Assembly (NCBI GenBank): GCA_000182565.2
Contig: KQ257455.1
Length of the DNA: 64,000 nucleotides
DNA from: Spizellomyces punctatus DAOM BR117
Taxonomy: Eukaryota
Direction: 5' to 3' (one strand)
Of the stretch, positions 40,991 to 48,894 are shown in pieces. The notes beneath the pieces were generated by a model, which was not told the DNA's origin, made no database searches, and worked only from the letters and a program-made list of their open reading frames with translations. Positions within the stretch are counted from its first letter, which is position 1; each line of letters starts with the position of its first letter. Both the position numbers and the translations under genes were made by a program.

Positions 40991-43380
40991 CTACCAATCC
41001 ATCTTTGGCTTTTGCTCGACAAACGGTTTGACAACCTTTCCACGGTACCCCACACCATCCAACCACGGCCACTCTCGGCTTCTCTTGCCTTCAAATACCT
41101 TGATGAGAGCATCCTTTTGCATCGTGAGGCCAATGTCATCCAACCCATTTATCAAGCAGTGCTTTGGGAATTCTTCAACCTTGAAGGGAATCTCTTCACC
41201 ATTTTCACGTCGAATGACTTGGGCAGGTAGATCAATTTCCAAGTGTTTCCCTTCTTGTGCATCAGCCATCAGAATAGACACAGTGGCTGCAGGAAGAGGA
41301 ATAGGCAGCATGCCATTCTTGAAGCAATTGTTAAAAAAGATGTCGGCAAACGATGGGGCAATAATACACCGGATTCCAAAGTCTTGCAGAGCCCAAGGAG
41401 CGTGCTCACGACTAGACCCACAACCAAAGTTCTCTCCAGCAACCAGAATGGACGCTTGTGTGTAGGGTGGCGTGTTGAGGACAAAAGTCGGGAGGGGAGT
41501 GTTGGTGGCAGTGTCATATCGGAGTTCGTAAAACAAGGATTTTCCGAGACCGGTACGTTTGATCGTCTTTAGGAACTGCTTAGGAATGATCATGTCCGTA
41601 TCAACGTTAGACATGGGCAGAGGCGCTGCGATGCCCTTCAACACGGTAAACTTGGGCATTCCGCCCGCGGACCCCGTAATAGGTGCAGTAACTGTCGTCG
41701 TGTCACTTGTCTCTACCAATTCTTGCGTGGCTGGCGTCAAAATATCCGTGCCCAAAAATTCCTTAGAGTCGCGAACCGTCACAGTAATGTTTAGCTGGCT
41801 AGCGGGGGCGGATCCGTTCAACAACTCCCTCACATCCGCCAGGTGTCCTGTAACCGCGGCTGCAGCGGCCATGGCCGGACTTACAAGGTGGGTACGGCCC
41901 TTAGGTCCCTGCCGTCCCTCAAAGTTCCGATTTGAGGTTGATGCACAGCGCTCCAAAGGCTTGAGCTGATCGGGGTTCATTCCTAGACACATGGAGCAAC
42001 CGGCCTCGCGCCAATCAAAACCGGCTTCGATAAAGACCTTATCCAAGCCTTCCGCTTCAGCCTGTTGCTTGACAAGCCCGGAACCAGGAACGACCATAGC
42101 GTGGACATTCGGGGCGACCTTGCGTCCGTAAGCGATACGCGCAGCGGACCGCAGATCCTCAATTCGTGAGTTTGTGCAAGAGCCAATGAAAACCTTGTCA
42201 ACGGGGATGTCGGTCATCTTCGTGTTGGGTTCCAGGCCCATGTAAGCCAACGCCCTCTCCATAGCCGCCCGTTTTCCAGCGTCTTCAACCTTTGAGGGGT
42301 CCGGCACATTTCCAGTAATGGCCACCACATCTTGCGGACTCGTCCCCCAAGTCACAGTGGGAATAATTTCTTGTCCGTTGATCTCGACCTCAATATCGTA
42401 TTTTGCTCCAGGATCCGATCGTAGAGATCGCCAGTATGCGACTGCAGCGTCCCATTCTTCACCGGCTTTTGGAGCAAGAGGACGTCCTTTTAGGTATTCA
42501 AACGTGATTTCGTCTGGGGCAATCATTCCAGCTCGTGCACCAGCCTCAATGGCCATATTACAGATGGACATGCGCGCTTCCATGGACATGGATTCCAGTG
42601 CCGACCCGCAAAACTCAATAACATGTCCTGTACCACCAGCCGTACCAATGACACCAATAATGTGCAAAATAACATCTTTTGAGTTGACTCCTTCAGGCAC
42701 TTCACCATTGACCCGAATTCGCATGTTCTTTGACTTTTTTTGAAGAATAGTTTGTGTAGCAAGAACGTGTTCCACCTCGGATGTACCAATACCAAAGGCA
42801 AGAGCACCGAAAGCTCCATGGGTCGAAGTGTGCGAATCGCCACAGACGAGGGTAGTTCCTGGCAGAGTGAATCCCTGCTCAGGACCGATAACATGAACAA
42901 TACCCTGGCGTTTGTCACTCAAGCCAAAGTATGTAACACCAAATTCGGCGACATTTTCTTCCAAAGTTTGACACTGAGTGCGGGATTCAATCTCATCAAC
43001 AAATGTGGCAATGGATTTGAAATTCTACAGAGACGCAAGTTTAACAACCACTCATCAGACTACCAAGTTATGCACAAAAGCATACCTTACGATTCCCAGT
43101 CGTAGGAATATTGTGATCGACGGTCGCCAGAGTCAAGTCACCTCTTCGCACCTTCCTTCCAGCATTCCTCAAACCCTCAAAGGCCTGAGGAGAAGTGACC
43201 TCGTGCACAAGGTGACGGTCAATATATATCAAACAAGTTCCATCCGGCATTTGTTCGACAACATGATCGTCCCATATTTTGTCGTAGAGCGTACGTGGAG
43301 TAGGTGCCTAGTTTATGAGCATTAACCATAAGCAACAGGAGAGGATGAAGAGTGCATGCTTCACGTACCGAAATAGTCAT
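40991..43380 (-). CDS. LEU1: 3-isopropylmalate dehydratase (fused LeuC-LeuD)
   Basis: [80 protein letters not shown]. Confidence 0.97.
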
Positions 43381-43890
43381 AATGGGCAAGATTGTGGTAA
43401 AGAGTCTAGGCGGAGGGTATTGGTCGGCCTATACAGAGGCAGCAGATGAAAAGTGCAGATCACAAGGTCTCGCCGTCTTTTATGGAACATTTCGGCAATT
43501 TGAAATCTGGACACGTGATCGATCAAGATCTTATCAGTGATTCATATGTGGCGCAGCGTATGGTGAGTCGTCAGCGGAGTTTTGTCTTTCGCAGGATTCA
43601 TCTGAAATCGTTTGCTTCTTATGGCTTTGTTGTCGCCTGGAGCATGTGCGCAAAATAAATAGTCACCAGGAAAACGACATTAAGAGATAAAGCAACAGGC
43701 TGGGTTTCGAAATTGCAATGCGCAATACAAAATCTTTTGTGAAACGGATTGGAAACAGCGCATAAACCAAAAGATTGTACTATTATCTTGACTAAAAGAG
43801 TATCTTCCTCACCCCCGAGTTTTCCAGCTACCAAGCAATATATACAGTTAAGCAGAAAAAACATACCCCACCGAAAACAGTCCTAATGGG

Positions 43891-45491
43891 TCACTTCTAA
43901 AGATAACAGTGAGTTGTAGTATACTCCCTCACATTGGGATTCACCGTATAGCTCACCTTTGAATGGTCACCTCCGCACTCTGGACAATACCATTTGCCCT
44001 TGGGAGGGGCCGATAGTCCAACGCAAGCGTAATGGAACCATTCGATAGGGCACTAGAGCAAGAGAGCAAGGGATATTGTTGGGTGAAGAGAAGAAACGTG
44101 TTTAAGGAGCAGTGAAACACTTACGTCGTCATTATCGCACTAATTACCATAGTGAAAGGAGGAAGCGTTATGCTACATCAAATAGACAGGTATCAAGCTC
44201 CAGAATACTCTTACCGCTAAAAAAGATGAAAACATGGTTAAACCCGCGTTGACAGTCTCCAGAGCAAAGCAATGCAACCTTACCAATCATGTCTCCAAAT
44301 GATACTTGGTTACATATGCAATACGTAGGCTCATTTGGATCAATCGGCATATCAAGCACATTTGTCTTGTCCTTTGTTTGCTTTATTTCGCTGCTGCTAC
44401 AGTTGAAATTTCATCTCTCGTCAAAATAAAGGACATTTGCATGATGAACGCACCCTTTCCTCTCCTTTTTTGCATGATGTTGGGTAACTCTTCGGGTCGA
44501 GCTCGTAGCGGTCTTTATGGTTTGAGTCCTCTTGGGAGTTTCCAATGCATCCCTCGCCTTCTCACGTTCATCAATTGTTTTGTTCTTTTTATACTCTAAA
44601 TGCAGTTGAAAAATGATGAGAGAAGACGGCCGACAAATATAAGTCTTCTTTAGCTTACTCTTTGGAGTTTCCATAGAAGATGCTGCAAAGTAAATGGGGT
44701 TTGTCAATACGGCTTACACCCAGACGCAAAACCAGGGACCAAGGCTTCACCTTCTGCCCTTTTCTCGCCTCGGCCAGCCAAAGCGCTCTTGTCAAGTCTT
44801 CCTTTCATTGATTCTGATCCATACGTGTTTGAACTTCTTATAAGACCAGGTCCTGTCATTTGCTCCTCCTCAAACTTGTTTAAATCATCGTCCAGTCTTC
44901 TAATATGTCGATCCACCTTCGTCCGGAAACAACGTAAGCGCAGGGTTCCATGTTGCGCAAAAACCTGAAGCAATCACTGCCCACCATGTCATACGTCTGA
45001 ACCGCCAGAGCAACCTTATCTTCCCCATGCTTCAACGTGTCCTTGAACGACTTTGCTATATTTTGCAGCAGCGCAACTCGCTCCTCTGGCGTCAATGTTC
45101 GCAAGTCTTCCATAAACTTTGAAGTCTGTTCCTCAATATTCGATACAGCATCTTGAGCCCTTGCATCCAGTTCCCGCATCTGGATTCATTCAACAATAAG
45201 TTGAGTAATCAATCCGGGCTCGCAGCACAGCGAACGCCATACTGACCAAAGTAAAGTTCCGTGCGAGTTCCCCTGGCAGTGATTCTATAGCTAGAGTCGT
45301 CGCGAGATTTAGATGCTTTGCACTAGATCTAGAGCATGACAGATTCAATATTGGTCCATGTACATACTGTCCAGATAATCCTAGATCACAAGAAATCGGG
45401 ACAGCACCAAGTCAATGAACGCTGCACGCACAGATTTAGCACAAAAGAGCTGCATTATGAGGGAACGGACCTCTAGATGCAACAAAGCCAT
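43891..45491 (-). CDS. ING-family PHD finger chromatin protein (Yng2/Pho23-like), with micro-exons
   Basis: [79 protein letters not shown]...KWYCPEC. Confidence 0.93.
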
Positions 45492-45973: not shown

Positions 45974-46028
45974 CTCGAACATCTCTTTCGCCTTGAGCAC
46001 ACCTCGAACATCTCTTTCGCCTTGAGCA
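45974..46028. repeat. Direct tandem duplication of 26 bp (period 29)
   Basis: ctcgaacatctctttcgccttgagca at 45974 and 46003. Confidence 0.9.
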
Positions 46029-46990: not shown

Positions 46991-48894
46991 ATGCTCCTGA
47001 ATTCTCATCACAAGAGCCCCAGCATCACAAAACACATTGATTGTTATCTGGCAAACGACAACATCTCGCCGCCCCACTCTCCCGTACCAACAGTTTATTC
47101 GACGCGTGACATTGAGCTTTTAAACTACACATCGCTTGATTTTATTCGTCCGGAGGTTCCTAGGGACCCACCGGTTTGCAAATCTGCCAAGCTGCGTCAA
47201 AAGTACTTGTTGGCGCAACAGTCACCGGCTGCGCCGGCGGCTTCTGAAGGGGAGGGATTCAAGTTTGGCGGGGCAGGTTCCTCGTCAAGTGCTCAAGGTG
47301 GCATCTATGCGCATAAAAACCCATCCACATCCAGCCTTTCCGCGGGCCTCGCCGCTGCTGCGGCTGCACATCGCTCAGATTCGCCAAGACCACAACAGCA
47401 ACCACAGCAATCACAGCAATCACAGCAGAGGATTGGGGTAGGAGCGGTTGGGATGGGCACGCCCGTGATGGACATGCGGGGTTTGGCCAGAGGGCAAACG
47501 CCTCCACCTCGCGCCAACAATGGATCTCCCTGCTCCGCAAACCGAACAACTCGACCACCACCCGTAGACACTTTTTGCCCAACCACGGGCGAGAATAGGC
47601 CTGCATCTCCATCCATTCCCGTTAACATTCCTTCAACTGGCAACTTTTCTCATGGCGATTATGCGCGTTTCCCGGCAAGCCCGCCAAGCGAAAGCTCGTC
47701 AACGGCGTCATCACCTGGCGCTGTCGGACCGGAGGGCTCACGCACATGGACACATGGACGACAGAAGGACAAGGTTGGCATGCACAGACCCCGACACAGT
47801 CTCTCCGTTAGTATTGTTCGCAGGCGAACAAGCTCAGGGGCAAGTTCCCCCGTGACAAGCGGGTCGTACTCATCGCTAACGCAGTCCCCAGCAGTGTCTT
47901 TTCTGGCTTCGCTGGCCGACATGTCTGCCCCAAAAGGCCCAGGTAAGCATTAATTGGGATCTTTCTTGTTTTCAAACACACGCTTATCATATTTTTGTTC
48001 TTTACTATTGCAGTGCATGGGATGTACTCGGAAGGTGATCAGGTCGGCGACTTCCTTCTGGGAAGAGAGATTGGATCTGGTGCATTCGCTCGCGTTTTTG
48101 AGGCCGACGTAATTGACGGACCCCACAAACAGTTGGGAAAAGTTGCCGTAAAAGTAGTGAAAAAAGACCAACCTCGAATGGAAGATGGTCAAGATGTGCA
48201 GCAACACATTGACCATGAGACAACTATTTGGGCGCGTCTCCGCCACCCTCACGTCCTGGAAATGCTGGAATTGATGGATGCCGACGACGCAGTATTTGTT
48301 GTGTGTGAACTTGCAACCGATGGCAACTTGCTTGACCTGATCGTGAAAGAAGGTCGTCTATCGGAAGCCCATGCCCGCAACCTGTTCAGGCAGATTGCTG
48401 ATGCAATTCGATACTTGCACGAGGAGATACAGGTGGTGCATCGCGACATCAAGTGCGAAAATATCTTGCTGGACTCTCAAGGAAACGCAAAACTTGCCGA
48501 TTTTGGATTGTCTGTCGAATTAGCGCCGCCGTCGCCGGAGGCGTCTCACAATGGGGCATCTCCAAATGACCCTGTCTTTTGTCATGGTTCGCTGCACTAT
48601 TGTGCCCCAGAAGAGCTACGACAAACCACGCACAGCAACCCTGCCTCGGATTTGTGGTCTTTAGGATGTGTCTTGTATGCGATGCTCACAGGAGCTTTAC
48701 CCTTCAACGATGGGTTTCCTCCTCGATTGCAGGCCATGATCATCAATGGTCGATACGATGCAGAAAAATTGGACCGAGCGGGAGTCTCAAAGGAAGCCAA
48801 GGACCTGATTGCGGGCATGTTGAAGACAAAGATTGAGGAGCGATTCACGATGCGCGAGATTTGGAACCATCCTTGGATCCTGTGCCAAGATTGA
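46991..48894 (+). CDS. CAMK-group Ser/Thr kinase (Nnk1-like) with disordered N-terminus, 2 exons, start uncertain
   Basis: PAVSFLASLA...EGDQVGDFLLGREIGSGAFARV, VAVK, HRDIKCEN, LADFG, GSLHYCAPE. Intron at 47942-48013. The frame is open from 46631. Confidence 0.85.

What the first reader, a model, noticed from the sequence alone, without database searches (positions are those of the whole stretch)
44215..44216. Obligatory 2-nucleotide exon inside the ING PHD finger
Seen in sequence: the minus strand reads ATG ATT G|gtaagg...catcttttttag|CG|gtaagag...ggtaattag|TGC GAT AAT GAC GAC|gtaagt. The dinucleotide CG has a pyrimidine-rich acceptor on one side and a strong donor on the other. Including it gives GDMIACDNDDCPIEWFH, the established ING PHD consensus. 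Skipping it gives ATT GTG CGA TAA, an immediate stop. Inference: this is a functional 2-nt exon, close to the minimum possible. It must be spliced by sequential intron definition, and regulated skipping could remove the H3K4me3-reading PHD finger.
Basis: partly seen in the sequence, partly recalled or inferred. Interest (0 to 1): 0.7.

Follow-up and report, generated by a model that had tools for sequence, protein, structure and literature searches.

The report
Two-base exon in chytrid ING gene
A chromatin-reader (ING) gene of a soil chytrid fungus has a real exon only two bases long, seen in RNA reads and needed to encode its histone-binding PHD finger; such tiny exons are rare but already described in other fungi and plants, and the public gene model misses this one.

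Summary
Confirmed. Window 44215-44216 (minus strand, CG) is exon 9 of a 12-exon, 278-aa ING4/5-like gene of Spizellomyces punctatus, between GT-AG introns of 67 and 75 nt. It is the only splice solution keeping PHD spacing. In one RNA run, the consensus of 6 clipped reads matches the inclusion isoform at 18 of 18 letters. The public model SPPG_04225 lacks the PHD. 18 of 35 chytrid models break within one residue of this spot (biased sample), hinting that the flanking introns are old in chytrids; no orthologous DNA was available. Most likely mechanism, inferred: two ordinary short introns removed one after the other. Regulated skipping has no support; skipping creates a premature stop. Known kind: 57 two-base exons are reported in Coprinopsis, one-base exons in Fusarium, Cryptococcus and Arabidopsis. 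The scan noted two other 2-nt exons elsewhere in this genome (unchecked). New member of a known kind; interest 0.3.

The parts
44215..44216 (-). Exon 9, 2 nt (CG): bases 2-3 of the Ala codon before the third Cys of the PHD finger
   Evidence: Only zero-indel solution; read consensus 18 of 18
44217..44283 (-). Intron 8, 67 nt, phase 1, GTAAGG...TTAG; 13 of 15 pyrimidines before the acceptor; branch-point-like TTAAC 25 nt from the end
   Evidence: removal implied by the 6 clipped reads
44140..44214 (-). Intron 9, 75 nt, phase 0, GTAAGA...TTAG; branch-point-like ATAAC 32 nt from the end
   Evidence: removal implied by clipped reads
44125..44139 (-). Exon 10, 15-nt microexon (CDNDD)
   Evidence: Its letters make up the loose ends at both 44284 and 44052
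44053..44124 (-). Intron 10, 72 nt, phase 0
   Evidence: 18 reads clipped at 44052 continue in exon 10; same position in paralog L004
44284..44396 (-). Exon 8, 113 nt, first part of the PHD finger (YCIC...SFGDMI + G)
   Evidence: read depth 15.4 in bin 44272-44352
43957..44052 (-). Exon 11, 96 nt, second part of the PHD finger (CPIEWFH...WYCPEC)
   Evidence: PHD-type Pfam matches; joint 43896-43957 in 18 reads
43891..43896 (-). Exon 12, coding part (Lys + stop); 3' UTR runs to a poly(A)-like end near 43763
   Evidence: Joint in 18 reads; 6 reads with a T-run loose end at 43763
44454..45179 (-). Exons 4-7 (45179-44985, 44916-44751, 44682-44659, 44595-44454): ING N-terminal domain and basic linker
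   Evidence: PF12998 at E 5e-12 for exon 4; public model P0018 identical for 200 aa from exon 4 on
45247..45491 (-). Exons 1-3 (45491-45471, 45380-45368, 45290-45247; 21, 13 and 44 nt), absent from the public model
   Evidence: Translation equals the start of the sister-species protein P0002; no read support seen, depth there is near zero

Best explanation
The CG is a real, normally included 2-nt coding exon of the ING4/5-like gene. It has no activity of its own: it is what is left between two introns that sit two bases apart in one codon. Shown: the exon is in mature mRNA and the PHD finger needs it. Inferred: each flanking intron (67 and 75 nt) carries its own donor, branch-point-like motif and acceptor and is recognised across the intron; two spliceosomes cannot act two bases apart at once, so one intron is removed first and the CG becomes the end of a normal-sized exon before the second goes. 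Either order should work, because the last three bases before the intron-9 donor are GCG whether or not intron 8 is still there. Skipping would need a 144-nt intron, longer than any of the gene's 11 introns (57-90 nt), and gives a premature stop that is probably degraded. Inferred more weakly: both introns are old within Chytridiomycetes.
For: Unique zero-indel solution. Loose-end consensus of 6 reads equals the inclusion isoform 18 of 18. The noisier consensus of 18 reads at 44052 (agreement 0.63) fits inclusion at 20 of 24 letters, intron-8-retained 19, the Gly-Lys rival 18, skipping 17, intron-9-retained 15 (compared by eye). Depth 0.35 in the almost wholly intronic bin 44191-44271 against 15.4 and 32.1 in exonic bins. 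Every intact homolog has exactly one residue here: G 120 and A 42 of 162 non-chytrid, A 9, G 5, E 2 of 16 chytrid; solved ING1 and ING4 PHD fingers align to the Powellomyces ortholog P0004 without a gap. Donors 8 and 9 match the U1 consensus at 6 of 9 positions, in the upper range of the gene (4-7), the rival donor at 4. Mago nashi and UPF1 are in the genome. Fungi show comparatively low exon skipping (PMC6142364, passages).
Against: One RNA run, one sample, short 3'-biased reads, 6 decisive reads seen only as a consensus; agreement 0.86 could hide a minority isoform and 12 loose-end rows were not shown. The bare motif is not enriched in the genome (12 against 28). No splicing intermediate was observed, so order and intron definition are untested. 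Conservation rests on protein-model break points, not DNA; the one metagenome scan gave only a bacterial chance match. Two chytrid full-length models have Glu at this residue, unexplained.
Confidence: 0.85

Rival explanations
1. The exon is a regulated switch: under some life stage or stress it is skipped (or an intron is retained), giving an ING protein without the PHD finger or lowering ING by nonsense-mediated decay.
For: Skipping or retention does end the frame before or inside the PHD finger. A regulated fungal microexon switch is described for Trichoderma Xlr2 (PMC11121469, search listing and start of abstract). Only one condition was sampled.
Against: No skip product or joint listed and little intron depth (weak because reads are short). 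Both splice sites are among the stronger ones of the gene. Fungi show comparatively low exon skipping.
Confidence: 0.07
2. No micro-exon: one 139-nt intron from the donor at 44278 gives M-I-G-K-C-D-N, a PHD finger with one extra residue.
For: In frame with canonical GT-AG ends; Gly is the commonest residue after M-I in homologs.
Against: Such reads would run on to 44279, yet the 6 clipped reads break at 44284 and carry CG. Weak donor, 4 of 9. No intact homolog has the extra residue.
Confidence: 0.03
3. Nested or recursive splicing (stwintron or ratchet point): intron 8 is removed first and rebuilds a donor, so the CG is part of an outer intron.
For: Two introns nearly abut, the layout in which fungal stwintrons occur (search listing and abstract starts).
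Against: The rebuilt donor would be GCGGTA and would delete the conserved small residue; a ratchet point needs AG directly followed by GT. The CG is in the reads.
Confidence: 0.02
4. The public model is right: a 272-nt intron from 44324 to 44053 gives a 247-aa protein without a PHD finger.
For: It is the deposited model P0018 / SPPG_04225.
Against: No joint 44052-44325 listed; 18 reads clipped at 44052 continue in exon 10. The PHD codons are intact and conserved.
Confidence: 0.02

Closest known systems
Exons of 1-3 nt in Coprinopsis cinerea (PMC12230235; passages read)
   Same: Internal fungal exons of 2 nt (57 exons in 50 genes; 13 of 1 nt), many creating a premature stop if omitted, and breaking gene models when missed.
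   Different: Basidiomycete, long-read support; the passages read name no ING gene and say nothing on chytrids.
1-nt exon of Fusarium CYP621A (PMC12940212; part 1 of 3 of the text read)
   Same: Splits one codon of a conserved motif, found by phase mismatch, confirmed by 18 public reads, missed by annotation.
   Different: One base shorter; conservation shown on DNA of about 20 orthologs, which could not be done here.
1-nt exons of plant APC11 and VPS55 (PMC4674806 and PMC8831610; passages read)
   Same: Constitutive ultra-short exon (APC11) between conventional introns; sequential removal by intron definition proposed; absent from reference annotations.
   Different: Plants; tested with reporter constructs or RT-PCR; VPS55 has natural isoforms without the exon.
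Cryptococcus neoformans exons 'as small as 1 bp' (PMC3990503; passages read)
   Same: Intron-dense fungus with tiny exons missed by automatic annotation.
   Different: No gene named in the passage read.
ING4/ING5-like proteins (PF12998 + PHD finger)
   Same: N-terminal ING domain and C-terminal PHD finger; chytrid hits are named ING4 or ING5 by their sources.
   Different: The PHD finger is spread over four exons (113, 2, 15, 96 nt); the four closest paralogous PHD loci of this genome lack introns 8 and 9.

Membership tests
Ultra-short (3 nt or less) internal spliceosomal exon | 1-3 nt between a canonical AG acceptor and a canonical GT donor | tested here: met
   TTAG|CG|GTAAGA at 44216-44215
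Ultra-short (3 nt or less) internal spliceosomal exon | Both flanking introns are of normal size with their own signals | tested here: met
   67 and 75 nt, inside the gene's range of 57-90; branch-point-like motifs by pattern only
Ultra-short (3 nt or less) internal spliceosomal exon | Present in spliced mRNA | tested here: met
   Consensus of 6 reads, 18 of 18 letters, one run
Ultra-short (3 nt or less) internal spliceosomal exon | Conserved in orthologous loci | tested here: inconclusive
   No orthologous DNA found; indirect support from break points in 18 of 35 chytrid protein models
ING family | N-terminal ING domain (PF12998) | tested here: met
   Exon 4 scores 46.7 bits, cut-off 23.9
ING family | C-terminal Cys4-His-Cys3 PHD finger | tested here: met
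   All eight ligands are in the 278-aa model; exon 11 alone matches PF23011 at 27.8 bits (cut-off 27) and PF00628 at 21.7 (cut-off 24, below it)
ING family | ING4/5 subfamily rather than ING1-3 | tested here: inconclusive
   Source names of hits say ING4/5; no tree was built, and the best solved PHD match of P0004 was ING1
ING family | Binds H3K4me3 (recalled property of ING PHD fingers) | not testable with these tools
   No binding assay; inferred from sequence only
Stwintron | Inner intron interrupts the donor, branch point or acceptor of an outer intron, leaving no exonic bases | tested here: not met
   CG stays in the mRNA; definition from abstract starts
Recursive-splicing ratchet point | AG directly followed by GT (zero-length exon; definition recalled) | tested here: not met
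   Two bases separate them and are retained
Regulated (alternative) microexon | Inclusion changes with condition or cell type | tested here: inconclusive
   One run, inclusion only; no comparison possible

The most novel reading that the evidence does not exclude
The 2-nt exon is ancestral to Chytridiomycetes (break points that fit one or other flanking intron occur in models from six orders; this part alone I put near 0.55) and is kept because its skipping or the retention of a flanking intron is regulated across the chytrid life cycle, switching the ING subunit between a histone-reading and a PHD-less or degraded form.
Probability: 0.06. Interest if true: 0.65.

Novelty: new member of a known kind. 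Interest (0 to 1): 0.3.

Why it matters
Practical: the deposited S. punctatus model has no PHD finger, and 18 of the 35 chytrid models examined break at this spot, so surveys from public proteins could wrongly conclude that chytrids lost or truncated this histone reader. Biological: it gives a read-supported 2-nt exon, next to a 15-nt exon, in a fungus for which transformation is reported (PMC7213984, search listing), so the order in which two introns two bases apart are removed can be tested. It does not change what is known about the minimum exon size, since 1-nt exons are described.

Tried and rejected
2) Genome-wide motif count: 12 matches against 28 in the control, no enrichment; for 8 of the 12 (this locus included) some stop-free read-through exists, which is not evidence, and the other 7 were not followed. 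3) The run search listed no indexed holder on record as RNA; X9 came as a same-label addition. Contigs of X1, X3 and X4 showed no joints and behave like DNA; X4 covers 43906-44855 with no differences but may be the source material, so it is not independent. 4) Rival splice paths (139-nt single intron, stwintron, ratchet point, public model) rejected as above. 5) The 0 of 166 against 18 of 35 contrast is not used as a rate test: non-chytrid hits were ranked by full-length score, while chytrids came partly from an N-terminal query and cluster members. 6) Paper searches for this exon or for ING or chytrid microexons listed none on it; one search returned 0 papers; the library lacks most subscription journals and no supplements were opened. 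7) A search for Spizellomyces intron lengths gave nothing I used, so the length argument rests on this gene's 11 introns. 8) Earlier-finding look-ups by sequence and by words returned nothing. 9) No structure was predicted and no tree built.

Full report
Observation. Exon 8 ends at 44284, intron 8 spans 44283-44217 (67 nt), CG lies at 44216-44215, intron 9 spans 44214-44140 (75 nt), and a 15-nt exon follows. I enumerated all stop-free, in-frame one- and two-intron paths with GT or GC donors and AG acceptors between the flanking exons; only the path through CG adds no residue. Skipping ends the protein at 241 aa. The strict motif arises in 38 of 50,000 shuffles of the interval, the loosest in 3,572, and genome-wide the motif is no commoner than its reversed control (12 against 28). 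The motif alone therefore proves little.

The gene. A 12-exon model (21, 13, 44, 195, 166, 24, 142, 113, 2, 15, 96 and 6 coding nt; introns 57-90 nt) gives a 278-aa protein. Exon 4 matches the ING domain PF12998 and exon 11 matches PHD-type models. The closest hit is 98% identical over exon 4 and comes from a Spizellomyces species; its cluster holds SPPG_04225 of Spizellomyces punctatus (P0018), identical to the model for 200 residues, which names the organism. That public model starts at exon 4, uses a donor at 44324 joined to 44052 (272 nt), leaves the frame and has no PHD match.

RNA. Four of 11 listed runs were laid. Run X9 (raw RNA-seq, about 6 in 100 read, reads up to 60 nt) gave 261 reads, 218 of them at least 99% alike, nearly all in the gene's sense and densest at the 3' end. 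The aligner cannot place 2- and 15-nt exons, so they appear as loose ends. Six reads are clipped before 44284; their consensus (agreement 0.86) equals the inclusion isoform at 18 of 18 letters and none of the 6 other isoforms computed. Eighteen reads are clipped behind 44052; this noisier consensus (0.63) matches inclusion at 20 of 24 letters, intron-8-retained at 19, the Gly-Lys rival at 18, skipping at 17 and intron-9-retained at 15 (by eye). Depth over the almost wholly intronic bin is 0.35 against 15.4 and 32.1 in exonic bins. The only joint listed is the last intron (18 reads). Limits: one sample, few reads, consensus only, 12 loose-end rows not shown. The three contig sets showed no joints.

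Relatives. One search examined 201 proteins: 35 that I labelled Chytridiomycota from source names (two by cluster membership because the name was cut) and 166 others. Of the 166, 161 match the full PHD pattern, 4 are intact by eye but miss my pattern, 1 breaks after CDNED, and none breaks right after M-I. Of the 35 chytrid models, 14 are complete, 2 break after CDNxD, 1 is the public model of this gene, and 18 break within one residue of M-I. Eight of the 18 continue Ala/Gly-Val, which is what a phase-0 donor (GTN) reads as; this locus would give A-V-R. Four continue Gly plus Lys, Ile or Thr, as a read-through of a phase-1 donor would; this locus would give G-K. Six are other breaks, and the A-stop of the sister species can be reproduced here with cryptic acceptors before 44197 or 44172. 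The first type occurs in Spizellomycetales, Rhizophlyctidales, Chytridiales and Synchytriales, the second in Cladochytriales, Rhizophydiales and Chytridiales; Chytriomyces hyalinus models show both. This suggests both introns are old in Chytridiomycetes, but it is inference from protein models, either type alone needs only one intron, and the sample is biased (see Tried and rejected). The one DNA scan found no ortholog. Within the genome, the four closest PHD paralogs lack introns 8 and 9 (L003, L004, L005, L007), L004 shares the intron-10 position, and the divergent L008 appears to have an intron at the intron-8 position (read from sequence).

Mechanism. Shown: the exon is included and needed. 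Inferred: both introns are short, have donors matching the U1 consensus at 6 of 9 positions (consensus recalled) and branch-point-like motifs, which fits recognition across each intron. Two bases leave no room for simultaneous assembly (general knowledge; argued for the Arabidopsis 1-nt exon in PMC4674806, passages), so removal should be stepwise. The last three bases before donor 9 are GCG with or without intron 8, and the first two after acceptor 8 are CG either way, so no fixed order is required by sequence. For human SRRM4-dependent microexons the downstream intron mostly goes first (PMC10250204, passages); that need not carry over. After either step the competing site is gone, so skipping needs a direct 144-nt pairing, longer than any intron of this gene. 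The skip stop lies 103 nt before the last junction and Mago nashi and UPF1 are present, so decay is likely but untested. Nothing seen supports regulated skipping, and fungi show comparatively low exon skipping (PMC6142364, passages), but one run cannot exclude it.

Known systems and novelty. Coprinopsis has 57 two-base exons in 50 genes and 13 one-base exons (PMC12230235, passages). One-base exons are reported in Cryptococcus (PMC3990503, passages), Fusarium CYP621A (PMC12940212, first third of the text) and plant APC11 and VPS55. Stwintron and ratchet-point membership fail because CG is retained. Searches listed no paper on this exon, within a library lacking most subscription journals; no supplements were opened, and microexon tables there could bear on other fungi. 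Two earlier notes of this scan describe other 2-nt exons in this genome; I did not test them.

Verdict. Observation confirmed; interpretation partly supported. A real 2-nt exon, new as an instance, known as a kind, with a useful annotation correction and a testable hint of chytrid-wide conservation. Interest 0.3.

Noticed in passing
window 45247-45491, minus: Three small 5' exons (21, 13, 44 nt) encode the first 26 residues of the ING domain; the public model P0018 lacks them, the sister-species model P0002 has them.
   Followed up: partly
window 44391-44399, minus: Three tandem acceptors (TAG CAG CAG) at the end of intron 7. The public model reads G-S-S-E and the sister-species model G-E, so alternative acceptor use is possible.
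   Followed up: no
proteins P0003, P0038 (and broken model P0010): Glu instead of Ala/Gly at the codon split by the 2-nt exon. G plus AG would give Glu, so this could be a model artefact or a real shift of the acceptor; unexplained without DNA.
   Followed up: no
L003-L008 (G000 C1, C11, C2, C3, C15, C12): Six further ING-type PHD loci in the genome with differing intron patterns; L008 seems to share the phase-1 intron after Met-Ile-G.
   Followed up: partly
L014 (G000:C6:1006979-1007065, minus), also L016, L018-L022: Other matches to the 2-nt-exon motif that allow a stop-free read-through; the motif is not enriched, so most are probably chance.
   Followed up: no
window 40991-43345, minus: Next gene downstream looks like a fused isopropylmalate isomerase (LEU1-type; name recalled from the translation, not tested).
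   Followed up: no
window about 45974-46028: A direct repeat of about 26 bases, two near-adjacent copies, in the region upstream of the ING gene (seen by eye).
   Followed up: no
window 43879: A>T difference in 3 of 44 reads in the 3' UTR; may be error or strain difference.
   Followed up: no
window 47947-48894, plus: Open frame with protein-kinase motifs (recalled from the translation, not tested).
   Followed up: no
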